Source of the DNA: Candidatus Poribacteria bacterium
GTDB lineage: Bacteria; Poribacteria; WGA-4E; WGA-3G
Reading direction: 5' to 3'
Assembly (NCBI GenBank): GCA_965197475.1
Contig: CBDANF010000003.1
Location: 1,504,001 to 1,568,000, forward strand
Length of the DNA: 64,000 nt
Positions within the stretch are counted from its first letter, which is position 1, and every line of letters begins with the position of its first letter. A program made the translations under genes and the position numbers. The notes under the pieces were generated by a model. It searched no databases. It was not told where the DNA came from and saw only the letters and a list, made by a program, of their open reading frames with translations. Positions 1 to 12,531 of the stretch are shown piece after piece.

Positions 1-45
1 ATTATGTTTGAGATCACTCCATTTTGTTAGAAGTTTACCATGGGT

Positions 46-70
46 GGAAGGGTGTTGTTTTCACCCTTCC
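46..70 (-). terminator. Hairpin, probable original terminator of the 3475-aa gene, now separated from it by the DUF1670 element
   Basis: GGAAGGGTG-ttgtttt-CACCCTTCC inverted repeat; resembles the hairpin region (tggaagcgtgttatcttcatcttc, ~12591-12614) downstream of the paralogous 1082-aa gene. Confidence 0.5.
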
Positions 71-98
71 GGTTGTATAGATACAATTTACTTATAGT

Positions 99-127
99 TT
101 GTATCAAATGACCCCATGAGTTATACT
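99..127 (+). promoter_or_regulatory. sigma70-like promoter spanning the left junction of the element
   Basis: TTGTAT (99-104), 17 nt, TATACT (122-127); the TT of the -35 box comes from flanking DNA. Confidence 0.45.
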
Positions 128-194
128 ATTAGTATTCGTTAAACTAACGAGTAGATGTCCTCGGATCCCCGATAATCTATTCATGGAGGTCAAT

Positions 195-995
195 ATGAAC
201 CGCAAGAAGGATACCGCTTACGGTATCACTCGGCTCGAATCCAAGAATGCCAGAGCCGCGATTATTCAGAAGATTTCAGCAGACTTTAATCTAATGCCTC
301 TCGTTGCTGAAGCCTACTATAAACAGATTTCCACCTACTTTGAACAACACGCCGATGTGCACCTGACATCAGGGCAAATCTGCTACGAGGCAGTCGCCGC
401 AGAGGAACCCGCAGGTAAACATATCGCTTTAGCGAAAAAAGTTTCCTGTCGGCTAACTCTCAATGACACAAACGCCGATCTTGAAGTCTTAGCGAATTAT
501 GGTCTCGCAGGACTCAGACGGCATCGGATCCTCCGATTGACCCAAGAAGCTTATGACCAAGATGCCTTACTGAGCTACGAGGATTTAGCTGTATTATTAA
601 CCACCAGTCCTGCTACAGTCAAACGCGACATTCGACACTTGAAGCAGGATGGGTATTTCGTTATGACGCGCGGGACGAAACACGACATGGGCCCCGGCAC
701 TTCTCATAAAACCCAGGTCCTGGAGTTATATTTCAAAGCCTATACCTTCACCGAAATCGAGAAAAAGACGAACCACAGCGAACGAGCTGTCTACCGCTAC
801 TTGAAAGACTTTACACAAGTCGCTACGCTCCATCATCAAGGCTTTCCTAACGCACAGATACGCCTGATCACCCATCTATCTGACCGGTTGATCCGCGAGT
901 ATCTCTCACTCTATGAGGAATACCAACACACAGATCGCATAACCCAACTCCTTCACCCAGAACCTGAGGACACAAAAAAGGGGGACCTCTCATGA
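195..995 (+). CDS. DUF1670 domain-containing protein (copy A)
   Basis: Motifs RLTQEAYDQDALLSYEDLA..L..S..TVKRDI, TRGTKHDMGPGTSHK and HSERAVYRYLKDF are typical of DUF1670 (two HTH-like segments); GGAGG RBS precedes the ATG at 195. Confidence 0.8.
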   Translation: MNRKKDTAYGITRLESKNARAAIIQKISADFNLMPLVAEAYYKQISTYFEQHADVHLTSGQICYEAVAAEEPAGKHIALAKKVSCRLTLNDTNADLEVLANYGLAGLRRHRILRLTQEAYDQDALLSYEDLAVLLTTSPATVKRDIRHLKQDGYFVMTRGTKHDMGPGTSHKTQVLELYFKAYTFTEIEKKTNHSERAVYRYLKDFTQVATLHHQGFPNAQIRLITHLSDRLIREYLSLYEEYQHTDRITQLLHPEPEDTKKGDLS

Positions 996-1876
996 GCAAA
1001 CCTCTAACCCGCACGCAAATCAACGAGAAGAAATTCAGACGCATCAACGATAAGTCCCTACGACAGTTGCTCATTCACCGCTTTCTCAATGACTATGGTT
1101 ATGACAAAGGCGAAGTCACTGCCACCGCCATTGTTGATGATATTCTTAAGACCGTTGAAGACTATTTCGTGATTACCCTTCCTTTGGAGAAACTCGCCAC
1201 CGGCGATCAACTCCCGGATGAGCGTTTCTTGAGTTATGGACAACTCGTTTGGATGGCCGTCCCTATTGAAGAGCATCCAGAAAGAGGAAAGTCCATCGTC
1301 AAAACCCGCATGAAACCCGTCATCCTGACTTACCTCGCCGCAGAGGATATTGAATCCTTTCGCAACGGTTTCACCTCCCGGCAATTGCGGATCAATCGCT
1401 TGGTCCGCTGGTGTCATCAAGCTTATGACCAAGGGGCATTATTGACACAACTCGACTTGGCAGTTTTGCTCAATGTCTGCGATGCCGTTGTCTGTGATTA
1501 TGTTAATGAATGGCAAAAAACCACTGGAGAACTCTTGCCCACCCGTGGCAATATCCATGACTTATCGGGGGCTATTACCCATAAGAAAGAGATCATAACC
1601 CTCTATCTTCAAGGACATCTCACCCCCAGGATTGCCGCAAAGACCAAACACTCTAAGGAGGCAGTTGACCGATACATTCGCGATTATGAGAGCGTCAAAG
1701 TCGTTCGGAAAGCAACCGCAGATATTGATAAAATCTCACAGATTACACGACTTTCTAAACGCGTCATCTCTCAATATCTCGACCTCATACCGCAGCACCA
1801 ACTCCAAGCCATAGATGCAGACCTTGCCAATTCAGACTCAAACGATGAAGCCACTCACCAAGGAGAAGCCCAATGA
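992..1876 (+). CDS. DUF1670 domain-containing protein (copy B)
   Basis: RWCHQAYDQGALLTQLDLA, PTRGNIHDLSGAITHK and HSKEAVDRYIRDY; ATGA overlap with copy A suggests translational coupling. Confidence 0.8.
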   Translation: MSKPLTRTQINEKKFRRINDKSLRQLLIHRFLNDYGYDKGEVTATAIVDDILKTVEDYFVITLPLEKLATGDQLPDERFLSYGQLVWMAVPIEEHPERGKSIVKTRMKPVILTYLAAEDIESFRNGFTSRQLRINRLVRWCHQAYDQGALLTQLDLAVLLNVCDAVVCDYVNEWQKTTGELLPTRGNIHDLSGAITHKKEIITLYLQGHLTPRIAAKTKHSKEAVDRYIRDYESVKVVRKATADIDKISQITRLSKRVISQYLDLIPQHQLQAIDADLANSDSNDEATHQGEAQ

Positions 1877-1943
1877 GACCCTAATCCTATGTTCCCGACG
1901 AACTTTACTTCGCAAAACCGGGGCAGGTGCCTTGAAAATATGG

Positions 1944-1972
1944 TTGACAACCGCTACTGGTTTTGCTATACT
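1944..1972 (+). promoter_or_regulatory. Near-consensus sigma70 promoter in the 3' non-coding end of the element
   Basis: TTGACA (1944-1949), 17 nt, TATACT (1967-1972). Confidence 0.75.
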
Positions 1973-1978
1973 TTAGAC

Positions 1979-2104
1979 ACGTTTATCGCTAAACGCATCA
2001 TTTCTCAAAGAGGATGCTCGCGATCCCAACGCAACCCACTCATCAACGATCGCTGGGAAGCCAATAAACATCAGCCTTCCAGCTATCCTATGGTCATTTG
2101 ATAC
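1979..2104 (+). ncRNA. Candidate structured ncRNA of the DUF1670 element
   Basis: Starts just after the promoter; four consecutive stems: CGTTTA/TAAACG, GCATC/GATGC, GCGATC/GATCGC (22-nt loop), GCTGGGAAGC/GCCTTCCAGC (12-nt loop). Confidence 0.4.
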
Positions 2105-5100
2105 TATTTTCGTATTAACATTTTGCGTGTAGCAGTGAAATCGCCAGCAGTGAACATATAGAAGTAGACACCACTTGCCACCTTTTCACCGATGTTGTTT
2201 CTGCCATCCCAATGCGCAGCACGGCTGCGAGCCTGATACAGGCCTGCACGCTGATGTCCTAAGTCTAATGTACGCACTACATGTCCCTTGATGTCGTATA
2301 TTGTCAACGTGACATCGGCAGGTTTTGACAACTGATACGGTATCCACGTCTCTGGGTTAAACGGGTTGGGGTAGTTTGCTGCAAGCGCGTTCTCTCGACT
2401 CGCAGTAACCGTTACTTGCGCGGTAAGTGCTGGTCCGTTGTATTCTGCGATAGCGTCTGCGCCAACGGTTATGGTCAACGTGCCATCTGTAGTGAGATTT
2501 CCGTCAAAGGTCAATTCAATGGTGATCTCCGTGTCGCTTTGTCGGTCTATGTCAAAGGTGCCTACGGTAACACCCGATATACCGGTAACAGATACGGCAT
2601 CACTAATGACAAAGATAGACCTTTCAAATTTCCTGCCGCTGAGTGTGAGTGTAATGACGCTCCCATCCAGTGCAGCCTCAGTCAAAGGTGCAGCAGTTGA
2701 GGCAGACACTGATTCTGAAACAGCAGCGACAGATATTTGTGTCGTGAGTGCTGGTCCGTTGTATCCTGCGATAGCGTCTGCGCCAACGGTTATGGTCAAC
2801 GTGCCATCTGTAGTGAGATTTCCGTCAAAGGTCAATTCAATGGTGATCTCCGTGTCGCTTTGTCGGTCTATGTCAAAGGTGCCTACGGTAACACCCGATA
2901 TACCGGTAACAGATACGGCATCACTAATGACAAAGATAGACCTTTCAAATTTCCTGCCGCTGAGCGTGAGTGTAATGACGCTCCCATCCAGTGCAGCCTC
3001 AGTCAAAGGTGCAGCAGTTGAGGCTGCCACCGATTCTGAAACGGCAGCGACAGATATTTGTGTCGTGAGTGCTGGTCCGTTGTATCCCGCGATAGCTTCC
3101 GCTTCAACGGTGATAGTAAGCGTTGCATTGGTATCAAAGTTAGTGCCGTCAAATTCAAGTTTTATAGTAGCTTCCGTATCGCTTTCTTTGTCAGGGTCGT
3201 GCCAAGGGATTGTTACGCCAGCAATACCAGAAACAGATACCGCATTTCTAATGTCAATAGAACTTGCGTATTTCCTACCACTCAGTGTGAGTGTGACGAC
3301 ACTTCCGTGTAGGGTCGCCTCTGTCAAAGGTTCAGTAGTTGAGGCAGACACAGACTCCGTGTTAGCAGTGACCGGTATTTGTGCTATGAGATTGTCTCCA
3401 TCATAATCTTTAATTGCCGCTGCTCCTACAGATACCGTGAGTGTGTCATCAACAGTTAGATTGCCTTCATATTCAAGTTCAATCGTAACTTGTGTATCAC
3501 CGACACGAGTCACACCAAAGGTGTCAACGGTTACCCCTGTTATTCCGGATAGTGTGATTGCATTTCTGATTGTAACACTGGAACGATCAAAAACACCATT
3601 AACAAGTTTTAGAGTAATGACACTTCCATGCAATGTTGCTTCTGTAAGTGAAGCACCTTTGGATACGGTTAAGGTAGGGGTTGCGCCAACAGATTGTGGT
3701 TCGCTTTCGTCCTCATCATCTTCAACCACTTCAACTTCTTCAAGCTCCTCACTCTCTTTGATCTCTTCTTTTGGCGTTACTTCTTTTATCTGCCACGTAT
3801 TACCATCTATTCGCTCAGCAACAAAATTATGCTTCACGCCATTGATCGTACCCTTACTTTGAATGATCGTATTCTTACCTTGAGCGATTTGAAATAAACC
3901 ACCACCTACATGTGATGCAGAACCGTTTTCACGAACTGTAAATGTGCTATTTGTGCCGGGGTCAATACAACTGTCGCCTGGTTCCAACAGGTCTCCCACC
4001 GCACAGTAGTTTTGATCAGAAACATCCGTTTCTGAAACATCTGTTATGTTGATGGTGATATCAATACTATCAGTACCTCCGTTCCCATCCGAAACAGAGA
4101 CCGTAACAGAATAAGATGACTTCGTTTCATAATCCAATGCTGCGTTTGTCTGCAGTTGCCCAGTGGAAGTATCAATGCTAAACGCAGCCGCGTCCGTGCC
4201 AGTAAGGCTATATGTAAGTGTATCCTCACTATCCGCATCGGTTGCAGCGACAGCAGTCCCTATATTTTCACCCGCAGCAGTGTTCTCGGCAATGGAGCGT
4301 GTGGTGCTGTCGCCATCACTAAATACAGGGGCATTGTTTAAGGTTGCATCATCAGGTTGTGTATTACTCCTGTTATCTGCAATCTCCTTGATTTCCCAAG
4401 AATTTCCATCAACCTTTGTAGCGACGAAGCGGTATTCCTTATTATCTACCGTTGCGGAGATACTCATTGAATCATCATTAGAAACTTGGTTTATCCAGCT
4501 GAGCAACCATGGTAAGTTCGGAATATTCCATTTCGACCTCCCATCTTCTGACACTGAGAAAACAGCCTCAGAATCGGGATAGGTGCAGCTTTGTCCTGGT
4601 GTAAGAATGTCTCCTACCTGACACACGTTAGTTGTTGTATCAGTTCCAACCGATTCTGTTTCCGCTACATCAGTGATATTGATGGTGATCTCTATCGTAT
4701 CAGTGCCGCCTCTGGCATCAGAGACAGTGATGATGACAGAAAAGGATGACTGAGTCTCATAATCCAAAGCAGCCATTGTTTGCAGTTGCCCCGTAGCAGT
4801 ATCAATACTAAACGCTGCAGCATCCGTGCCACTAAGGCTATATGTAAGTGTGTCTCCGCTATCGGCATCAGCTGCAGAAACTGGTGTGCCGATGTTTTGC
4901 CCCGATTCAGTGTTTTCGGCGACAGAACGTGTCGTGCTGCTACCATCCGTGAAAACTGGTGCTGTGTTTGTAACGACAGCATCGAATACTGCCAGAGGTA
5001 GTTCTGCAGATTTGACAAACGCATATCCACTGTGGTTATGAGGTAATTCCGGTAATGTGTCAATATCCACAAGCACAGCATCCGTTGTTCCAGTAGTTCG

Positions 5101-8100
5101 ACTTACTGTAAAGACTTCACTCTCTACACTACCTGCAGAAATCGTAATATTCGTTGTACCACCGCTGATGCTCCCATCGGTAACGCTGATCAGCAGCACA
5201 ATATCAAACGGCGCGCCCGTGGGTGCTACTGCCTTAAACTGTCCATCTGCTACCTTTTCCAGTGAAACGTTAATAGGAAATGGGTCAACTGTGTTACCAC
5301 CCAAGCTGACCAAACTCAGCCTATTTAAACCTTTAAAGATGCCATCCGGCAGCGCACTCAAATCGTTGTTAGCCAACGAGAGTTCACTTAGTGATGTAAG
5401 TCTGTCAAAGATGCCAGCAGGCAACGTGGTAAAAGCATTGTTACCCAAGTGGAGCGTCGTCAGTGCGGTGATATCATCAAAGATGCCAGCAGGCAACGTG
5501 GTCAACTCGTTGGCATACAAGTAGAGGCTGTCGAGTGCGGTGAGACCATCAAAGATGTCAGCCGGCAAAGTGGTAAAAGAGTTGGCATACAAGGCGAGGC
5601 TGTCGAGTGCGGTGAGACCATCAAAGATGTCAGCCGGCAAAGTGGTAAAAGAGTTGTTACTCAAGTAGAGCGTCGTCAGTGTGGTGAGACCATCAAAGAT
5701 GTCAGCCGGCAACGTCGTCAACTCGTTGTCCCTCAAGTAGAGGTTGTCAAGTGCGGTGAGACCATCAAAGATGTCAGCCGGCAAAGTGGTCAACTCGTTG
5801 TCCCATAATCTGATCGTTGTCAGCGCGGTGAGACCGTCAAAATCACCGGATTTTAGGGCTGTGATGCCTTTGTTACTTAAGTTGAGTACCGTAATAGCGG
5901 CGAGGTGTGCTTCAGTCACATCCGCTGCATTATTTACGCCCGGCACTGCCTCCACAATCGCATCGCGCACCTGCGGCGTGCGGTTCCCTAACAAAGAACG
6001 GATTTCTGGTAATGGGTAGCTTAATGGTAAATCCGCAGATTTAACGAGTGTATACCCAGCGTGGTTTGATGGGAGGTTCGGTAATGTCCCGATATTTACG
6101 GTGACAGCCCCGGTGGTGTCAGGGGTTCGCGTCACTGTAAGCACTTCACTTTCCACACTACCTACGGAGATTGTGATAGTGCTTGCACCGCCTACAATGC
6201 TACCATTCGTTACGCTAATCGGTAACACAATAGTGAACGTCGCACCAGCGGGTGCAACTGCTTTGAACTGCCCATCTGCAACTTTTTCCAAAGAGATATT
6301 TAACGGTAGCGGATCAACTCCGATTTCACTTAATTGGAGTCCATTTAGTGAGGTAAGTCCGTCAAAAATTCCTGCGGGTAACGCAGTTAAAGCATTTCCG
6401 GTAAGGCCAATCCCTTGCAGTGCGGTAAGTCCCTCAAATACACCCGCTGGCAGTGTTGTCAATTGGTTGTGAGATAGGTCAATCTCTTGCAGTATGGTAA
6501 GTCCCTCAAATACACCCGCTGGCAGTGTTGTCAATTGGTTGTGAGATAGGTTAATCCCTTGCAGTGCGGTAAGTCCCTCAAATACACCCACTGGTAACGA
6601 GGTTATATTGTTACCAGGCATGTGGATACTTATAAGTTCAATGAGTCTGTCAAATACACCCAGTGGTAATGTGTTCAATTGGTTGTTTTCTATTGCAAGT
6701 TTTGTCAGTGAAGTAAGTCCGTCAAATATTCCCGCTGGCAGTGTGGTCAATGGGTTGCCAGATAGCCCGAGTGTTTCAAGTGCGGTGAGTCCGTTAAAAA
6801 TATCCGCTGGTAAGGATATTAATTCGCAGTCGAATATAGTGAGAGTATTAAGCGAAGTGAGACCGTCGAAATCACCGTGCTTTAGTGTAGTGATGTTCTG
6901 ATCAGATATATCCAACTCTTCAATAACAGTAAGGTGTGACTTCGTCACTTCCGCAGCAGAATTTACGTCCGGTATTGCATCCACAATAGCATTGACTACC
7001 TGTGGGGTGCGATGGCTGATCGGTGTGAATACTTCACCACCAAACTCGTTGAACACTAGTGGCAGATCATCGGATTTGACAAGTGTATAGCCAGAATGTT
7101 TTTCTGCTAACTGCGGTAATGTCTCAATATCCGCAGTAACTGCAAACGTTGTGCCGGGAATGCGGCTGACAGAGAAGATTTCGCTTTCCACATCTCCTAC
7201 TGGAATTGTAATATTTTCAACACCGACATCAATAACTCCATAAGCGATCCTGAGTGTGAGTTCAAGATCAAAAGGTGCACCAGAAGGAACAACTGCTTTA
7301 AACTGACCGTCACCAGCATGTTCAAGGCCGACACTAAGCGGCAGCGGGTCAACAGGATTACCTTTCAGATTGATAGTGGTGTCTGGGATAACTAAGTCAT
7401 CTGGTATTATGGAATCCTGTGAAATCACCTCACCTGTGATCAAATAGATGTAAAATGCTTTTATGGTAAAGTCATCTCTGTCATCAAAAATTCCTTTGAA
7501 GATACCTGTTGTCAATGAACGGAACTGGTTGTTCGCCAAATTAACGGCATTCAATGATGGAAGATTCTCAAATAGTCCTGCTGGTAACATCCTCAACTGA
7601 TTGTTACTCATATCTAATATTACCAATTTCGTGAGATTGTCAAAAATACCATCCGGTATTGAATTTAATTCGTTAGAGGATAGATTGAGCACGTTCAGGT
7701 TGGTGAACGTGTCAAAAATAGTGATTGGTAACGAGTTCAAATTGGTATTGGATATAAACAGGGTTCTCAGATTCGTGAGATATTGGAAGATGTTATCTGG
7801 CAATGTTGTGAATTCGTTGTTGTCTAACCCGAGTGCATCAAGGTTGGGCATGCCATCAAAATCACCGGGTTTTAGTTCTGTAATGTTCTTATTGGTCAGA
7901 TCCAGCACGGTAATAGCTGCGAGATGTACCTCAGTTATATCTGTAGCAGTATTGACACCCGGTACTGCGGCTACGATCGCATCTTGCACCTGTTGCGTTC
8001 GGTCAGTTACAGGTGTGTCACCGCTAAAGTCTGGTACTTGTGTCCCAGATATATCGTCTGGTAGAGTCAATACGATTAGGTTCGTCAGGTGGTCAAAATC

Positions 8101-11100
8101 GCTCCTTTGCACAGATATCAACGGGTTATTCGACAGATACAGGTGTGTCAGGTTGGTAAGATTGTGAAAGGGTCTGTCTGGCAGTGAATTCAACTGATTG
8201 CTGCTTAGGTTCAGTGTTGTCAGATGAGTAAGATTGTCAAAGAGCCCCTCTGGTAATGAACTCAACTGGTTGTTGTTTATGTAAAGTTCTTGCAGGTTGG
8301 TGTTATTGTCAAAAATGCCGACTGGTAAAGTGCTGATAACGTTGCTGCTTAGGTTCAGTGTTGTCAGATGAGTAAGATTGTCAAAGATCCTATCGGGTAT
8401 TGAACTCAACTTATTCCCATCCAAACGGATTTCTATGAGGTTATCCAGTCCGTCAAAATCACCGTATTTCAGTTCTGTAAGAGCCTGTGAATCACTAAAC
8501 CAATTGCCTCCAAGGTCTAAGTTAGACCCGCCAGAAGACGCATTTAGGGTGGTAATAGCTGTTAGATGTGCTTCCGTAACAAAGTGCCCCATATTATAAT
8601 TTTTCTTAGAATAAACACCATCAATTATGTATTCCCTCTCTACATTATGTAAAGTAGGATCTATCTCAGGTACTGATCCGATGATAGCATCAAGTATCTT
8701 TGGCGAACGTTCTGATACGGGTGTGGGGGCTCCAGGTAAGGCACTTATTACTGTTAGCGGTAATGATGATCTTAAGAATTCATGTACTATTCGACCGTCA
8801 GAGTTTGATAGACTCGGCAATGATACAATGTCTACAATAACTGCAGCAGTTGTGTTAGGAGTACGAGTCATTGTGAGAAGTCCACTTTCTGAATTACCTT
8901 TGGGTATCGTGATGCTGGTTGCACCACCATTGATACTACCATTTGCAAAGATAAGAGGTAGTTCCAAGTCAATCGGTGCAGGGGTTGGTAAAACAGCCTT
9001 AAATTGACCTTCACCAATCTTTTCCAATCCTATGGATAGAGGATAAGGCTTATTTTTGTGATTGAGATATAAAAGCGAGGTAAGGTTATCAAATATACCC
9101 GGTGGTAAGCTCGTTAGATAGTTGTTAAACAGGTGGAGCCTTTCAAGTGCTGTGAGGTTATCAAATATGCCAGCTGGTAATGTCGTTAGAAGGTTGTTAT
9201 GCAGGTGGAGGATTTCAAGTGCTGTGAGGTTATCAAATATGCCAGCTGGTAATGTCGTTAGAAGGTTGTTATGCAGGTGGAGGATTTCAAGTGCTGTGAG
9301 GTTATCAAATAATCCCTGTGGCAACGATGATAACGGGGTGTTATGCAGGTAGAGCACTTCCAACTCACTGAGGTTATCAAATATGCCAGCTGGTAATGTC
9401 GTTAGAAGGTTGTTATGCAGGTAAAGACCTTTAAGCGATGTGAGGTTATCAAATAAACCCTGTGGCAACGATGATAACTGGTTGTAAGACAGGGAGAGAC
9501 TTTCAAGTGCTGTGAGGTTATCAAATATACTCGGTGGCAACGATGATAACTGGTTGCCAGAACTGTAGAGAGACAGGTAGAGCCCTTCCAATGCGGTGAG
9601 GTCATCAAACAAACCCTGTGGCAACGATGATAACTGGTTGCCAGACAGGTCGAGCCTTTGAAGTGCTGTCAAACCACTGAAATCGCCGTGTTTTAGAGAT
9701 GTAATGTTTTGACGACGCAGATATAAATACGTAATTCCAGCAAGATGACTGGCGGTGATATCCGCAATACTCGAAACATTAAGATCATTTGATTTGACCG
9801 CGTTGAGAATCGCTTCTGCTACCTGCGGTGTCCGAACACCGAAAATATACTGGGATGCCGCCGTTGCAGTGAATGTAATCGTCTGCGAAACGTCTTGCAC
9901 ACTGACATCCACGGTGCTTATGCCTACTATATTGCCAAGCGTCAGTGTGCTTTCTGCTATACCGTCTGCATTGGTCGTGACGTTTATTGTGCTGAGTGTA
10001 CCACCCCCTGCTGTGACAGAAAACGTTACAGGCACACCTTCAAATGCTACATCGCTTGCATCCCGCACTTCCACAACAAACGGCTGTGCAAGCGTTGTGC
10101 CGATGTCCGCCTGCTGTGTATCCCCTGATATTTTCTCAACTGCTGTTACCGTGCGATTGTCAAAGTCTACAATAACATTTCTCACCTGCAGTGTAGGTAT
10201 GTGCGTATAGATAGATGGATAACTCAACAGATTACCCCGCGCATCTATCTCGTCATCCATCCCCAATTCTGTGTTTGCCACTAACGGTGATAGATCGGAT
10301 ACAGCGTTATTCTGAAAATATAACTTTCCCAGACTGGTCAAGTTTTGGACAGCGGATATATCCGATATGCTGTTGTTCGGCATATCTAACCACTCAAGAT
10401 TGATTAGGTTCTGAATAGACGATATACCTGATATTGTGTTATTGCCGATGACGAGTTCTGTTAGGTTCGTTAAGCCTGCAACCGCAGAAATATCCGTAAT
10501 AGTGTTTTCATTCAGATATAACTGTGTCAAATTTATCAGATTTGATACCGTTGATATATCTGTAATACTATTTTCATTGAGTCGCAGCTGCGTGAGATTT
10601 ATCAAACCTGATAAATGAGATATATCTGAAATACTGTTCCCCCATAAATATAGCTTAGATAAATTCGTTAAGCCTGATAGAGAGGAAAAGTTCGTGATAT
10701 TGTTATCCCACAGCTGCAACTCTGCGAGGTTCGTCAGTCCCGCAAGTGCAGATATATCCGAAACCGAGTTGTCGCCAAGAATGAGCGTTGTCAGATTGGT
10801 GGCTGTCTCAAGTCCTGTTAAGTTGTTGATACTGGCAGCTTGGGCATTCAACGTCGTGAGTGTTTCCATCTCTGTTTCTGAAATAGTGGCACCAGATGTT
10901 TTACCGAGCGCGGATTCTATTTTTGCACGTAGATTCGCATCGGGAATGTCTACGATAACCTCTGCAGGTGCGGTTACGGTGACACTGACGGCAATGGAGC
11001 AATTGTTATCAGTATTACTCTCACCGGTGACACTATCCACGCAGGCACCGTAATAGTAAGTGCCAGGGGTTGTTGGTGCAGTAACTGTAATATAGCGACG

Positions 11101-12531
11101 GATGGTGTCATTTACACCCAGTGGGTTACTGGGGTATCCACGGATCTGCGTATCCTCTGTCGAGATGACTGCATCCGAGGAGCGATAATACGTTAGGGTT
11201 GTCGCACTCGATTCTGCTGTGCCAGCATTTCTGAGGGTTGCATAGAGTCTAAACTGCTCTCCAGGTTCAACGGTATCGGGAACTGCCTCCACCGCTTCAA
11301 CGACCAAGTCAGGTGTTGATGGGACAACTTCTGCGGGGATACCGAGGGCAATACCGTCTGGAACATTCAACCCAGTGATGACGTCCTCAACGTTTGAACC
11401 ATCCAAGTTCGCACGCTGGATTTTACCGTTAGTAAACCTTTCCGTAGCAGGATTCCAGTCCGTATGTGTCCAATACATCTTTCCACCCACAACATCTAAT
11501 GCTATACCCCATGGAGCCTCCAGTCCGCTTGTGATGAGGTCTTGCACATTAGAGCCATCAAGGTTGGCACGTTGGATTTTATCCGTGCCATGGTCTATCC
11601 AGTACATCTTACCACCCGATACATCTAACGCTATACCTCTTGGAATGCTCAATCCCTGTGTAACGAGGTCTTCGACGTTGGAACCATCCAAATTCGCACG
11701 TTGGATTTTACTAGGACGCAAATTTGTCCAGTACATCTTACCACCCGACACGTCTAACGTTAAACCTGTTGGAGCGTCCAATCCCTGTGTAACGAGGTCT
11801 TCGACGTTGGAACCATCCAAATTCGCACGTTGGATTTTATCTGTCTGATTATCTACCCAGTACATCTTACCACCCGCTATATCTAACGCTATACCAAATG
11901 GAGAAGTTAGTCCGCTTGTGACGAGGTCTTGAACATTAGAGCCGTCAAGGTTTACGCGCTGGATTTTATCCGTGCCAGCATCTGTCCAATATATCGGTGG
12001 GCTATCGGGGTCAACGACAAGGACTTTGGGTTTGGTGGTTGCTGTCGGGGGTGTTGACGGTAAGTCTCCTGTGACCCGAAGAAGAGTTGAACTGACGTAT
12101 TTTTCCCTGACACCATCAACGTTCATCTCGATAACCACCGTGTATTCACCTGCGCTTGTTGGCGAATAGCCGCACAACTCTTGATCGCGTGCTGTAGTCG
12201 GAACATCAACCCATGGACTTGTTGAATTGTCTCGCCTTATCCATTTTGAACTGTGCATTTGGTAGCTGACACCGTTAATCGAAATGGTACCCTCGCCCTG
12301 TATACAACCTCCGATCCCAACACTTTGAAATAGACCTCCAATTCTGAAGACAATGCGATCTTCTGATACAGTAAGTCCGTCTAACACAGTATATCCGGTA
12401 GGTGGCGAGACGTAATTTTCGACGACTTCTATGCTTAATGCGTAACCAACACAAGGCAGCCCACATATCAACAATACCACTATAAGAATTGACATGTTGA
12501 TTTTTCGATTCACAACTAACATTTTCATCAT
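2104..12531 (-). CDS. Giant secreted eukaryote-like protein: YWTD (LDL-receptor class B) repeats, CARDB, internalin-type LRRs, Big-1 Ig-like, several capped typical-LRR modules, two cadherin domains, Ig-like repeats, C-terminal FlgD-Ig/T9SS-like sorting domain
   Basis: Signal peptide; GGKMYWTD..KIQRANLDGS repeats; PDLVVE..CARDB; IPDANLR internalin cap; LTTLPAGIFDNLT LRRs; APVF..RSVAEN..LDYET cadherins; C-terminal NYPNPFNPETWIPYQL...ASGVYFY...TRKMLIRK. Confidence 0.9.
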   Translation of the reverse strand: MMKMLVVNRKINMSILIVVLLICGLPCVGYALSIEVVENYVSPPTGYTVLDGLTVSEDRIVFRIGGLFQSVGIGGCIQGEGTISINGVSYQMHSSKWIRRDNSTSPWVDVPTTARDQELCGYSPTSAGEYTVVIEMNVDGVREKYVSSTLLRVTGDLPSTPPTATTKPKVLVVDPDSPPIYWTDAGTDKIQRVNLDGSNVQDLVTSGLTSPFGIALDIAGGKMYWVDNQTDKIQRANLDGSNVEDLVTQGLDAPTGLTLDVSGGKMYWTNLRPSKIQRANLDGSNVEDLVTQGLSIPRGIALDVSGGKMYWIDHGTDKIQRANLDGSNVQDLITSGLEAPWGIALDVVGGKMYWTHTDWNPATERFTNGKIQRANLDGSNVEDVITGLNVPDGIALGIPAEVVPSTPDLVVEAVEAVPDTVEPGEQFRLYATLRNAGTAESSATTLTYYRSSDAVISTEDTQIRGYPSNPLGVNDTIRRYITVTAPTTPGTYYYGACVDSVTGESNTDNNCSIAVSVTVTAPAEVIVDIPDANLRAKIESALGKTSGATISETEMETLTTLNAQAASINNLTGLETATNLTTLILGDNSVSDISALAGLTNLAELQLWDNNITNFSSLSGLTNLSKLYLWGNSISDISHLSGLINLTQLRLNENSITDISTVSNLINLTQLYLNENTITDISAVAGLTNLTELVIGNNTISGISSIQNLINLEWLDMPNNSISDISAVQNLTSLGKLYFQNNAVSDLSPLVANTELGMDDEIDARGNLLSYPSIYTHIPTLQVRNVIVDFDNRTVTAVEKISGDTQQADIGTTLAQPFVVEVRDASDVAFEGVPVTFSVTAGGGTLSTINVTTNADGIAESTLTLGNIVGISTVDVSVQDVSQTITFTATAASQYIFGVRTPQVAEAILNAVKSNDLNVSSIADITASHLAGITYLYLRRQNITSLKHGDFSGLTALQRLDLSGNQLSSLPQGLFDDLTALEGLYLSLYSSGNQLSSLPPSIFDNLTALESLSLSYNQLSSLPQGLFDNLTSLKGLYLHNNLLTTLPAGIFDNLSELEVLYLHNTPLSSLPQGLFDNLTALEILHLHNNLLTTLPAGIFDNLTALEILHLHNNLLTTLPAGIFDNLTALERLHLFNNYLTSLPPGIFDNLTSLLYLNHKNKPYPLSIGLEKIGEGQFKAVLPTPAPIDLELPLIFANGSINGGATSITIPKGNSESGLLTMTRTPNTTAAVIVDIVSLPSLSNSDGRIVHEFLRSSLPLTVISALPGAPTPVSERSPKILDAIIGSVPEIDPTLHNVEREYIIDGVYSKKNYNMGHFVTEAHLTAITTLNASSGGSNLDLGGNWFSDSQALTELKYGDFDGLDNLIEIRLDGNKLSSIPDRIFDNLTHLTTLNLSSNVISTLPVGIFDNNTNLQELYINNNQLSSLPEGLFDNLTHLTTLNLSSNQLNSLPDRPFHNLTNLTHLYLSNNPLISVQRSDFDHLTNLIVLTLPDDISGTQVPDFSGDTPVTDRTQQVQDAIVAAVPGVNTATDITEVHLAAITVLDLTNKNITELKPGDFDGMPNLDALGLDNNEFTTLPDNIFQYLTNLRTLFISNTNLNSLPITIFDTFTNLNVLNLSSNELNSIPDGIFDNLTKLVILDMSNNQLRMLPAGLFENLPSLNAVNLANNQFRSLTTGIFKGIFDDRDDFTIKAFYIYLITGEVISQDSIIPDDLVIPDTTINLKGNPVDPLPLSVGLEHAGDGQFKAVVPSGAPFDLELTLRIAYGVIDVGVENITIPVGDVESEIFSVSRIPGTTFAVTADIETLPQLAEKHSGYTLVKSDDLPLVFNEFGGEVFTPISHRTPQVVNAIVDAIPDVNSAAEVTKSHLTVIEELDISDQNITTLKHGDFDGLTSLNTLTIFDCELISLPADIFNGLTALETLGLSGNPLTTLPAGIFDGLTSLTKLAIENNQLNTLPLGVFDRLIELISIHMPGNNITSLPVGVFEGLTALQGINLSHNQLTTLPAGVFEGLTILQEIDLSHNQLTTLPAGVFEGLTALQGIGLTGNALTALPAGIFDGLTSLNGLQLSEIGVDPLPLNISLEKVADGQFKAVAPAGATFTIVLPISVTNGSIVGGASTITISVGSVESEVLTVTRTPDTTGAVTVNIGTLPNLPSNHAGYTLVKSADLPLSYPLPEIRSLLGNRTPQVRDAIVEAVPGVNNAADVTEAHLAAITVLNLSNKGITALKSGDFDGLTALTTIRLWDNELTTLPADIFDGLTALDNLYLRDNELTTLPADIFDGLTTLTTLYLSNNSFTTLPADIFDGLTALDSLALYANSFTTLPADIFDGLTALDSLYLYANELTTLPAGIFDDITALTTLHLGNNAFTTLPAGIFDRLTSLSELSLANNDLSALPDGIFKGLNRLSLVSLGGNTVDPFPINVSLEKVADGQFKAVAPTGAPFDIVLLISVTDGSISGGTTNITISAGSVESEVFTVSRTTGTTDAVLVDIDTLPELPHNHSGYAFVKSAELPLAVFDAVVTNTAPVFTDGSSTTRSVAENTESGQNIGTPVSAADADSGDTLTYSLSGTDAAAFSIDTATGQLQTMAALDYETQSSFSVIITVSDARGGTDTIEITINITDVAETESVGTDTTTNVCQVGDILTPGQSCTYPDSEAVFSVSEDGRSKWNIPNLPWLLSWINQVSNDDSMSISATVDNKEYRFVATKVDGNSWEIKEIADNRSNTQPDDATLNNAPVFSDGDSTTRSIAENTAAGENIGTAVAATDADSEDTLTYSLTGTDAAAFSIDTSTGQLQTNAALDYETKSSYSVTVSVSDGNGGTDSIDITINITDVSETDVSDQNYCAVGDLLEPGDSCIDPGTNSTFTVRENGSASHVGGGLFQIAQGKNTIIQSKGTINGVKHNFVAERIDGNTWQIKEVTPKEEIKESEELEEVEVVEDDEDESEPQSVGATPTLTVSKGASLTEATLHGSVITLKLVNGVFDRSSVTIRNAITLSGITGVTVDTFGVTRVGDTQVTIELEYEGNLTVDDTLTVSVGAAAIKDYDGDNLIAQIPVTANTESVSASTTEPLTEATLHGSVVTLTLSGRKYASSIDIRNAVSVSGIAGVTIPWHDPDKESDTEATIKLEFDGTNFDTNATLTITVEAEAIAGYNGPALTTQISVAAVSESVAASTAAPLTEAALDGSVITLTLSGRKFERSIFVISDAVSVTGISGVTVGTFDIDRQSDTEITIELTFDGNLTTDGTLTITVGADAIAGYNGPALTTQISVAAVSESVSASTAAPLTEAALDGSVITLTLSGRKFERSIFVISDAVSVTGISGVTVGTFDIDRQSDTEITIELTFDGNLTTDGTLTITVGADAIAEYNGPALTAQVTVTASRENALAANYPNPFNPETWIPYQLSKPADVTLTIYDIKGHVVRTLDLGHQRAGLYQARSRAAHWDGRNNIGEKVASGVYFYMFTAGDFTATRKMLIRK
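2426..3067. repeat. Near-identical 321-bp tandem duplication (107-aa Ig-like domain x2)
   Basis: agtgctggtccgttgtat recurs at 2426, 2747 and 3068; the two units are almost identical at DNA level. Confidence 0.9.
5402..5800. repeat. 72-bp tandem LRR-coding repeats
   Basis: tcaaagatgtcagccggcaa recurs with a 72-nt period; a similar array lies at ~9140-9660. Confidence 0.85.

What the first reader, a model, noticed from the sequence alone, without database searches (positions are those of the whole stretch)
1944..2104. Strong promoter plus multi-hairpin candidate ncRNA in the element's right end (possible guide/bridge-like RNA)
Seen: the ~215-nt non-coding tail after ORF B holds TTGACA-17-TATACT. 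Four back-to-back stems follow (1980-1995, 1995-2017, 2020-2053, 2052-2083). The last two have large A/C-rich loops, each with CCAA at the stem-loop junction. No credible ORF lies downstream on this strand. Known: IS110/IS1111 bridge/seek RNAs and IS200/605 omegaRNAs are encoded in element non-coding ends. Inference: this may be an RNA cofactor of the DUF1670 proteins. Alternatives are an antisense promoter against the host gene, or a promoter that drives the ORFs after circularisation.
Basis: partly seen in the sequence, partly recalled or inferred. Interest (0 to 1): 0.82.

Follow-up and report, generated by a model that had tools for sequence, protein, structure and literature searches.

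The report
Outward promoter in new transposon end
The right end of a previously undescribed mobile element of sponge bacteria carries a strong, conserved outward-pointing promoter followed by hairpins, so an RNA is probably made there, but it shows none of the tested hallmarks of a bridge or guide RNA.

Summary
The promoter is real. TTGACA-17-TGcTATACT (1944-1972) scores 11 of 12 and recurs, pointing outward, in 59 of 62 distinct right ends of homologous elements.

It lies in a ~2.0-kb, ~19-copy element of Candidatus Poribacteria that encodes two DUF1670 multi-HTH proteins. An empty orthologous site shows insertion without target duplication at the last Lys codon of T9SS cargo genes. The element's own end rebuilds Lys-stop. 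Some lineages use a REP-like hairpin loop instead.

- 1980-1995, which covaries;
- 1996-2016;
- 2048-2087.

Stem 2020-2053 is not supported.

Against a bridge or guide scaffold:
- there is no family-wide consensus fold;
- the distance from the -10 box to the element end varies (37-38, 99-103 or 131-136 nt) among proteins 78-88% identical;
- the loops are not complementary to target or donor;
- the loops do not change when the target changes.

Best reading: a promoter-centred right-end read-out RNA. In place it is antisense to the host gene, and it would drive the ORFs if the ends were joined. A flank-guided RNA role stays open. RNA data were contigs only.

The parts
92..2109 (+). DUF1670 insertion element. 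The boundaries are ambiguous by a shared TT: start 92-94, end 2107-2109.
   Evidence: About 19 copies of 90-100% identity in the genome. The empty orthologous site in a sister genome reads left flank ...AATTTA + CTT + TCGTATTAAC....
88..93 (-). Displaced original end of the host gene (AAG TAA on the - strand), now separated from the gene by the element.
   Evidence: empty site. In 61 of 78 distinct left junctions the flank ends in an antisense stop codon followed by YTT.
101..113 (+). Left terminal inverted repeat GTATCAAATGACC.
   Evidence: 13 of 13 complementary to 2092-2104; conserved in homologues.
183..995 (+). ORF A, a DUF1670 protein. The likely start is the ATG at 195, after GGAGG at 185-189.
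   Evidence: PF07900 E 4e-62 plus HTH families; ORF list.
992..1876 (+). ORF B, a DUF1670 protein of 294 aa.
   Evidence: PF07900 E 1.2e-61. AlphaFold model pLDDT 84, all-HTH-like, with no PDB fold match better than E 0.2.
1944..1972 (+). Outward promoter P_out: -35 TTGACA, 17-nt spacer, TG, -10 TATACT.
1977..1979 (+). Predicted transcription start, 5-7 nt after the -10 box. Inferred, not measured.
   Evidence: Inference from promoter geometry. RNA contigs cannot show starts.
1980..1995 (+). Hairpin H0 (CGTTTA / TAAACG, loop TCGC), a 5'-terminal stem-loop of the predicted RNA.
   Evidence: 4 of 6 pairs change on both sides; 82.6% of cells paired. G-U 41 against A-C 13 cells.
1996..2016 (+). 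Hairpin H1 (CATC/GATG outer stem, CTC/GAG inner stem, loop AAA).
   Evidence: 88% and 78% of cells paired; 3 of 7 pairs with double changes. No strand bias: G-U 24, A-C 35.
2017..2047 (+). A/C-rich linker with conserved CCAAC (2026-2030) and ACTCAT (2038-2043). ACTCAT is the inverse of ATGAGT at 117-122 in the window's left end; most homologues' left ends carry ATGAGT twice. It is probably a protein-binding DNA motif.
Evidence: Conserved columns. Left-end sequences.
2048..2087 (+). Long imperfect hairpin H3 (GATCGCTGGGAAG / CCTTCCAGCTATC) with loop CCAATAAACATCAG at 2061-2074.
   Evidence: Found in individual folds of most homologues. 74.5% of cells paired, variation mostly one-sided or G-U. 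G-U 82 against A-C 41. Identity 0.84 against 0.59 at four-fold sites.
2092..2104 (+). Right terminal inverted repeat GGTCATTTGATAC.
2104..2109 (-). Element-borne AAA TAG that now ends the host protein (rebuilt Lys-stop).
   Evidence: All 20 right ends in the genome read GATAC TATTT. All 17 occupied CTD genes end AAA TAG. The empty orthologue ends AAG TAA.
2110..12531 (-). Host gene: a 3475-aa T9SS cargo protein whose last codons are the target. The P_out transcript is antisense to it.
   Evidence: ORF list. TIGR04183 Por_Secre_tail E 1.2e-9 on the last 198 aa.

Best explanation
Positions 1944-1972 are a genuine, family-wide conserved sigma-70 promoter (P_out). It lies in the right end of a new DUF1670 insertion element and fires outward. 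It should start an RNA near 1977-1979. That RNA carries a 5' stem-loop (1980-1995), a second hairpin (1996-2016), an A/C-rich linker and a long hairpin (2048-2087). It then reads through the terminal inverted repeat and leaves the element.

The element always inserts in one orientation at the last Lys codon of T9SS cargo genes. The integrated copy therefore makes an RNA antisense to the 3' end of the host gene, head-on to host transcription that would otherwise run antisense through the DUF1670 genes. If right and left ends become joined, as a circle or tandem, the same promoter would transcribe ORF A and ORF B.

The selected feature is the promoter and transcription across the right end. The hairpins are lineage-specific stabilising or regulatory parts of the leader, mixed with DNA sites for the element's proteins. 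It is not a bridge-type guide RNA.

Shown: the promoter, its conservation and orientation, purifying selection, recurrent hairpins, the insertion geometry, and the absence of guide-like complementarity.
Inferred: that transcription occurs from this promoter, the start site, and both functional consequences.
For: - The promoter scores 11 of 12 with an extended -10. It is present in 59 of 62 distinct tails.
- It is also present in relatives with 58-78% ORF B identity. The distance from the -10 box to the element end varies: 37-38 nt (2 tails), 65 (1), 99-103 (11), 131-136 (45). So the promoter is conserved, not a fixed scaffold.
- Orientation is fixed. 17 of 20 right ends in the genome abut intact T9SS C-terminal domains head-on, 1 abuts a truncated one and 2 abut non-CTD sites.
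- The region 1980-2104 is more conserved than four-fold sites of ORF B: 0.70, 0.68, 0.84 and 0.94 against 0.59.
- H0 covaries, and a 5' hairpin of different sequence sits at the same place in the short type.
- The left end has only a weak promoter-like match by eye (TTGTAT-18-TATACT). The scan lists none of 9 or more of 12 inside the left end.
- Metatranscriptome contigs of 4 runs from 2 studies cover 1951-2109, and one contig spans 1720-2043.
- The predicted joined ends (CTAT-TT-ATAG) form an imperfect palindrome read directly. This fits a joined-end intermediate.
Against: - No transcript start, strand or 3' end is known, because the runs were contigs only.
- No joined-end (circle or tandem) junction was found in 159 genomes. 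The single hit is an 18-nt right-end-like remnant beside a left end.
- No go-back joint appeared in the RNA contigs.
- A promoter-only role does not explain why H0 and H1, 90-125 nt from the end, are at 0.76-1.00 identity when four-fold sites are at 0.56-0.77.
- It also does not explain why folds are better on the + strand.
- In lineages that target REP-like hairpins there is no host gene to be antisense to.
Confidence: 0.45

Rival explanations
1. Right-end RNA with a flank-derived guide, in the layout of TnpB reRNA. The P_out transcript (leader plus inverted repeat plus the first ~16-20 nt of flank) binds the DUF1670 proteins. Its flank part steers new insertions, or re-insertion, to sequences like the present flank: paralogous T9SS gene ends, or REP-like copies.
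For: - The RNA must read from inside the right end into the flank, in the same direction as the ORFs. This is as described for reRNA: about 150 nt, with the last ~16 nt from the flank (PMC8612924, passages read).
- Targets are families of similar sequences. 17 of 53 T9SS C-terminal-domain genes are occupied. The 2 non-CTD sites resemble the consensus by eye.
- Closely related elements use quite different target families, CTD ends or REP loops, with nearly the same right end. A flank-copied guide would explain this without any change in the element.
- Insertion leaves no target duplication and lies next to a fixed TAYTT.
- The proteins have no recognisable catalytic or targeting domain.
Against: - There is no TnpB/IscB-like or other RNA-binding domain.
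- The leader is cut to about 37 nt in relatives with 78% identical ORF B. A protein-specific scaffold is therefore unlikely.
- Complementarity to the flank is trivial here and cannot be tested in silico.
- No discrete RNA has been shown.
Confidence: 0.2
2. Top-strand DNA structures. The hairpins and the TAYTT cleavage points act as single-stranded DNA substrates, in the logic of IS200/IS605. P_out transcription merely exposes the non-template (+) strand.
For: - There is no target duplication.
- The same pentanucleotide precedes both cut points: flank TAYTT|ATAG and element ...CTATTT|flank.
- One target is the loop of a hairpin.
- Folding and G-T wobble favour the + strand, which is the non-template strand of P_out.
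- The genome holds two Y1 transposase genes elsewhere.
Against: - The element has perfect 13-bp terminal inverted repeats, unlike IS200/IS605. That family is described as having subterminal palindromes (PMC8612924).
- There is no HUH/Y1 gene in the element.
- The left end has no hairpin resembling H3 (read).
- Y1 genes are common: 6 of 14 control genomes have them.
- The + strand bias fits RNA equally well.
Confidence: 0.12
3. Bridge or seek RNA as in IS110/IS1111: two loops of the right-end RNA base-pair with target and donor.
For: - The long non-coding right end lies downstream of the genes, as in the IS1111 group (PMC11208160).
- There are terminal repeats of 13 bp.
- Insertion is scarless, with a 2-nt shared TT.
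- Some lineages target REP-like sequences.
- Two conserved A/C-rich single-stranded stretches are present.
Against: - No DEDD or Ser recombinase is present.
- The promoter is complete inside the right end rather than rebuilt across the junction.
- There is no excess complementarity of 1979-2087 to the flanks, left end or right end. The best P was 0.04-0.06 among 16 comparisons (8 target-by-sense combinations, each scored two ways), and the lowest of these was against the left flank, which is not conserved among copies.
- Loops stay the same when the target changes.
- There is no consensus fold.
Confidence: 0.03
4. No RNA function. The conservation reflects only protein-binding DNA sites of a complex transposon end, and the promoter match is incidental.
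For: - ACTCAT in the right end is the inverse of ATGAGT in the left end (117-122 in the window, twice in most homologues).
- In distant lineages the same place holds a 10 of 12 copy of the terminal repeat, read by eye.
- H3's 3' arm lies in the best-conserved subterminal 30 nt.
Against: - A site of 11 of 12 plus TG keeps its hexamers and 17-18-nt spacing in 59 of 62 tails, while the sequence around it varies.
- It survives even where the rest of the tail is gone.
- H0 covaries.
Confidence: 0.08

Closest known systems
IS1111-group (IS110 family) bridge / seek RNA encoded in the right non-coding end
   Same: Shared features are a long non-coding right end downstream of the genes, terminal or sub-terminal repeats (13 bp here; 7-17 bp in IS1111), sequence- and orientation-specific scarless insertion around a very short shared core, and REP-type targets in some lineages. 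The IS1111 features come from PMC11208160, passages read.
   Different: The proteins are two DUF1670 multi-HTH paralogues, not a DEDD/Ser recombinase. The promoter is complete inside the right end. There are no target- or donor-complementary loops and no conserved two-loop fold.
IS200/IS605 TnpB reRNA (omega RNA)
   Same: The RNA would start in the 3' part of the element, contain right-end hairpins and run into flanking DNA. The element sits next to a fixed pentanucleotide without target duplication. The reRNA features come from PMC8612924, passages read.
   Different: There is no TnpB and no TnpA in the element. The terminal inverted repeats are perfect. The leader length varies from about 37 to 136 nt among close relatives.
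Outward-facing promoters of insertion sequences (IS6110, IS3 family and others) and junction promoters of circular IS forms
   Same: A promoter near one end points out of the element. It can transcribe neighbouring DNA, or the element's own genes once the ends are joined. Two papers, PMC9330008 and PMC12095673, appeared in a search listing only. The junction promoter of IS110 circles is described in PMC11208160. Details for IS6110, IS911 and IS10 are recalled, not read.
   Different: Here the promoter is complete, near-consensus, and followed by up to 130 nt of selected, hairpin-rich leader. Its direction relative to the host gene is fixed by site-specific insertion.

Membership tests
IS110/IS1111 bridge RNA system | Recombinase with a DEDD RuvC-like domain (PF01548) and a C-terminal Ser domain (PF02371) | tested here: not met
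   Pfam scan of both ORFs gives only PF07900 and HTH families. NCBIfam gives nothing relevant. There is no PDB fold match.
IS110/IS1111 bridge RNA system | ncRNA with two loops complementary to target and donor around a shared core | tested here: not met
   The window RNA 1979-2087 was compared with its right flank, left flank, left end and right end on both strands, in 16 comparisons. The best P was 0.04-0.06. The loops are nearly the same in elements with CTD and REP targets.
IS110/IS1111 bridge RNA system | Conserved RNA secondary structure across the family | tested here: inconclusive
   RNAalifold gives no consensus over 29 sequences (-0.14 kcal/mol). Three local hairpins have modest support: covariation score 0.164 against a shuffle mean of 0.125, reached by 0 of 500 shuffles, and 0.072 or less when slid.
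IS110/IS1111 bridge RNA system | Promoter rebuilt across the joined RE-LE of a circular form | tested here: not met
   Both hexamers lie inside the right end, 132 nt from its repeat. No good hexamer pair appears across the predicted junction; this was checked by eye.
IS110/IS1111 bridge RNA system | Scarless, sequence-specific insertion without target duplication | tested here: met
   Empty orthologous site. Left and right junctions of 20 own copies and 78 distinct relatives.
IS200/IS605 reRNA / omega RNA | TnpB or IscB RuvC nuclease encoded beside the RNA | tested here: not met
IS200/IS605 reRNA / omega RNA | RNA of about 150 nt from the right end whose last ~16 nt come from the flank | not testable with these tools
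   The promoter geometry predicts read-out into the flank. Only contigs of RNA runs were available, so there are no ends and no strand.
IS200/IS605 reRNA / omega RNA | Subterminal palindromes instead of terminal inverted repeats, with a Y1 (HUH) transposase | tested here: not met
   Perfect 13-bp terminal repeats. No Y1 gene in the element. Two Y1 genes lie elsewhere in the genome.
Rfam families | Match to any curated RNA family | tested here: not met
   cmscan of window 1-3000 at E up to 10 gave only four chance-level hits, none in 1973-2090.
IS outward promoter (P_out type) | Sigma-70 promoter near an IS end directed outward | tested here: met
   (by sequence only; activity not measured).

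The most novel reading that the evidence does not exclude
The two DUF1670 proteins and the P_out read-out RNA (leader + right inverted repeat + flank) form a new kind of RNA-assisted, scarless, site-specific insertion system. No known recombinase or nuclease domain is involved. The flank-derived 3' part of the RNA directs new copies to sequences that resemble the present neighbour. This would explain how one element family colonises the last codon of many paralogous T9SS cargo genes in some genomes and REP-like hairpin loops in others, with no change in its own sequence.
Probability: 0.15. Interest if true: 0.9.

Novelty: new variant of a known kind. Interest (0 to 1): 0.6.

Why it matters
Full-text searches for 'DUF1670' and 'PF07900' found no paper. 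The family has about 1000 clusters at 50% identity.

This work shows that DUF1670 pairs mark an active mobile element. It has no recognisable transposase fold. It inserts without target duplication at the very last codon of secreted-protein genes, and it repairs the reading frame with its own end.

The conserved outward promoter is the one non-coding feature shared by near and far relatives, so it is the natural entry point for experiments on how the element moves and picks its sites.

If the RNA takes part in targeting, this would be a third, independent transposon-encoded RNA system beside IS110 and IS200/IS605. If not, it is a clean case of an element that shields itself from, or interferes with, the host genes it always sits behind in sponge symbionts.

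Tried and rejected
- Rfam scan: nothing.
- RNAalifold on all 29 tails and on subsets: no family-wide structure. Main group -8.0 kcal/mol, main plus distant -0.3.
- The window's MFE long-range stems (1980-1983 with 2031-2034; 1985-1989 with 2022-2026): no better than shuffles.
- Similarity of the H3 loop to the consensus target (9 of 10, same sense): seen by eye, then rejected. It is not present for the window's own flank, and the loop does not follow the target.
- My first idea that AAG-ending genes are immune was wrong. The empty site shows that the element itself supplies AAA, and the old AAR codon stays at the left flank.
- TSD models (TA or TTT): rejected by TGA-type left flanks and by CTT against TTT.
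- RNA runs: contigs of X1, X2, X3 and X5 cover the element. They end at 1951-1954 and 2102-2109, which coincide with a deletion-derivative breakpoint and with the element end. So they say nothing about transcript ends or level. No go-back joint was seen there.
- Joined-end search in 159 genomes: one hit, which is not a tandem copy.
- First AlphaFold run with 9 close sequences: useless, pLDDT 37.5.
- Foldseek against PDB: no match below E 0.2.
- PDB sequence searches: nothing.
- ESM Atlas: only HTH-type leads below 0.9.
- Plasmid collection: no match.
- Deletion derivatives (L020/21, L035/51, L041) are single decayed copies and give no rule on which parts are needed in cis.
- A promoter in the 62%-identity group (L165): none above 9 of 12.
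- Complex prediction, the phage collection and paper supplements were not used. Supplements of PMC11208160 may hold covariance models that could have been compared.

Full report
WHAT IS THERE. Window 1-2110 holds a compact element with two overlapping genes. ORF A runs 183/195-995 and ORF B 992-1876. Both match Pfam DUF1670 (E about 1e-62) together with several HTH families. A 228-nt tail follows. Perfect 13-bp inverted repeats sit at 101-113 and 2092-2104. The tail contains TTGACA-17-TATACT with an upstream TG. This is the only site above 10 of 12 in 2.6 kb. No Rfam family matches.

THE ELEMENT IS MOBILE AND NEW.
- The genome holds about 19 near-full copies at 90-100% identity, plus one deletion derivative.
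- ORF B relatives occur in 48 of 176 genomes of the phylum. Sources name the phylum Candidatus Poribacteria.
- The wider family has 1017 clusters at 50% identity.
- Full-text searches for 'DUF1670' and 'PF07900' returned no paper. A search on Poribacteria insertion sequences gave nothing relevant (listing only).
- A deep-alignment AlphaFold model of ORF B (pLDDT 84) is built largely of helix-turn-helix units. It has no PDB neighbour better than E 0.2.
- Sequence searches of PDB, the ESM Atlas and the plasmid collection add nothing.
- No known transposase, recombinase or RNA-guided nuclease domain is present.

WHERE IT INSERTS. All 20 right ends in the genome read ...GGTCATTTGATAC TATTT. Of these, 17 abut an intact T9SS C-terminal sorting domain head-on, 1 abuts a truncated one, and 2 abut other sites that still end ..LK-stop. 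A profile built from the occupied domains finds 53 such gene ends, of which 17 are occupied. That profile was derived from the occupied set.

The orthologous gene in a sister genome is empty. It reads ...GATACAATTTA CTT TCGTATTAAC.... Comparison with the window gives these results:
- The element spans 92/94 to 2107/2109, with a shared TT that cannot be assigned to either side.
- There is no target duplication.
- The original Lys-stop (AAG TAA) now lies at the left flank (88-93).
- The protein is finished by AAA TAG from the element's own right end (2104-2109).

In 61 of 78 distinct left junctions of relatives the flank ends in an antisense stop codon followed by YTT. Some lineages instead sit in the loop of a REP-like hairpin, AAACCGAGTTTTTT|CTTCAAAACTCGGTTT. 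That hairpin has 77 and 427 copies in two genomes. Both cut points follow TAYTT or TTTTT. The predicted joined ends, CTAT-TT-ATAG, are an imperfect palindrome.

THE PROMOTER. In 59 of 62 distinct tails a site of 9 or more of 12 is present. TTGACA occurs in 40, TATACT in 52, and the spacer is 17 nt in 39 and 18 nt in 17 (alignment). Relatives with 58-78% ORF B identity keep an outward TTGACA-17/18-TATTAT or TAATAT. A 62% group has none above 9 of 12. The distance from the -10 box to the element end falls into classes: 37-38, 65, 99-103 and 131-136 nt.

THE TRANSCRIBED STRETCH. Identity to the window, averaged over 28 genomes, is 0.70 (1980-2016), 0.68 (2017-2047), 0.84 (2048-2087) and 0.94 (2088-2104). 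Four-fold degenerate sites of ORF B are at 0.59. The whole stretch is therefore under selection.

Each homologue folds better than its shuffles. Mean z is -2.42 on the + strand and -1.67 on the - strand; the window gives -1.9 to -2.1. Yet RNAalifold finds no common structure over 29 sequences, and only weak ones in subsets. The window's long-range MFE stems are not supported.

On 46 distinct long-type sequences, three local hairpins taken together reach a covariation score of 0.164. The shuffle mean is 0.125 (0 of 500 shuffles reach the observed value), and slid controls give 0.072 or less.
- H0 (1980-1995) has 4 of 6 pairs with changes on both sides.
- H3 (2048-2087) is kept mainly through G-U and one-sided changes.
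- G-U cells outnumber A-C cells in H0 (41:13) and H3 (82:41), but not in H1 (24:35).

These sequences are related, so shuffle counts overstate support. In the 99-nt type, H0 and H1 are replaced by one unrelated 5' hairpin. In the 37-nt type, H3 is gone as well. The conserved ACTCAT (2038-2043) is the inverse of ATGAGT, which sits at 117-122 in the window's left end and occurs twice in most homologues' left ends. In distant lineages that place holds a near copy of the terminal repeat. This part looks like a protein-binding DNA site.

GUIDE TESTS. The window RNA 1979-2087 shows no excess identity or complementarity to its right flank, left flank, left end or right end. The best P was 0.04-0.06 among 16 comparisons (8 target-by-sense combinations, each scored two ways), and the lowest of these was against the left flank, which is not conserved among copies. 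Elements with T9SS and REP targets have almost the same H3 loop. So the two-loop bridge model fails its defining tests. A flank-derived guide, as in reRNA (PMC8612924), cannot be tested by sequence.

RNA EVIDENCE. Four sponge metatranscriptome runs from two studies hold contigs over the whole element, including 1951-2109 and 1720-2043. They are contigs. They break where copies diverge, and they give no start, end, strand or level.

JOINED ENDS. A search of 159 genomes for the predicted junction found one site. It is an 18-nt right-end-like remnant beside a left end, not a tandem copy.

READING. The one feature shared by all lineages is a strong promoter that transcribes across the right repeat and out of the element. 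In place it must give an RNA antisense to the host gene's last codons. With joined ends it must transcribe ORF A and ORF B. I take this promoter-centred reading as most likely (0.45). The hairpins would be leader elements and DNA sites. Alternatives:
- a flank-guided cofactor RNA (0.2);
- top-strand DNA substrates (0.12);
- DNA sites only (0.08);
- a true bridge RNA (0.03).

Noticed in passing
window 88-93 and 2104-2109; L184: The element inserts at the terminal Lys codon of T9SS cargo genes and rebuilds Lys-stop (AAA TAG) from its own end, so the host protein is unchanged. The old AAG TAA is left at the other side. 17 of 53 such genes in this genome are occupied.
   Followed up: yes
L150-L153, L156, L157, L171, L086; L174-L182: This is a REP-like palindrome, AAACCGAGTTTT(6 nt)AAAACTCGGTTT. 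It has 77 copies in one Poribacteria genome and 427 in another. Its loop is the insertion site of a sister lineage of the element.
   Followed up: partly
window 2104-12531 (- strand): The host gene encodes a 3475-aa protein with YWTD/LDL-receptor-like repeats, many leucine-rich repeats, cadherin-like parts and a T9SS sorting tail. Near its 3' end it has almost identical 321-bp tandem repeats: 2423-2600 recurs at +321 with 99% identity.
   Followed up: no
L015 and L016 (G000 C2:1160525-1162565 and C3:845185-847207): Two copies share an identical left flank but have different right flanks, one a T9SS gene end and one not. This suggests recombination between copies or a duplication.
   Followed up: no
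L197 (G081), next to the left end of the copy in L079/L141: An 18-nt sequence, GGTTATTTGATACTATTT, like the element's right end, lies directly against a left end with no element upstream. It is either a relic of a tandem pair or a sign that right-end-like sequence is itself a target.
   Followed up: partly
proteins P0133, P0135, P0141, P0143 (930-952 aa) and P0183, P0239, P0261 (519-532 aa): These are long proteins with three or two DUF1670 units in one chain, that is, fused forms of the ORF A/ORF B pair.
   Followed up: no
alignment A4 (77 DUF1670 proteins); ORF B residues 183-198 and 220-228: The motif P-x-RG-x-x-HD-x-G-x-x-x-THK is nearly invariant, and H197, H220 and Y228 are invariant. 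The motif lies in a loop between two HTH units and is a candidate active or DNA-contact site.
   Followed up: no
L195, L196 (G000 C3:1868465-1868800 and 968177-968539): Two Y1 (IS200-type / RAYT-like) transposase genes lie elsewhere in the genome. No link to the DUF1670 element was shown.
   Followed up: no
L020/L021 (G000 C3:94084-94563), L035/L051, L041: These are internally deleted copies of 325-730 bp that keep about 185-330 nt of the left end. They also keep the right end from about the -10 box onward, and L035/L051 keeps the whole promoter.
   Followed up: partly
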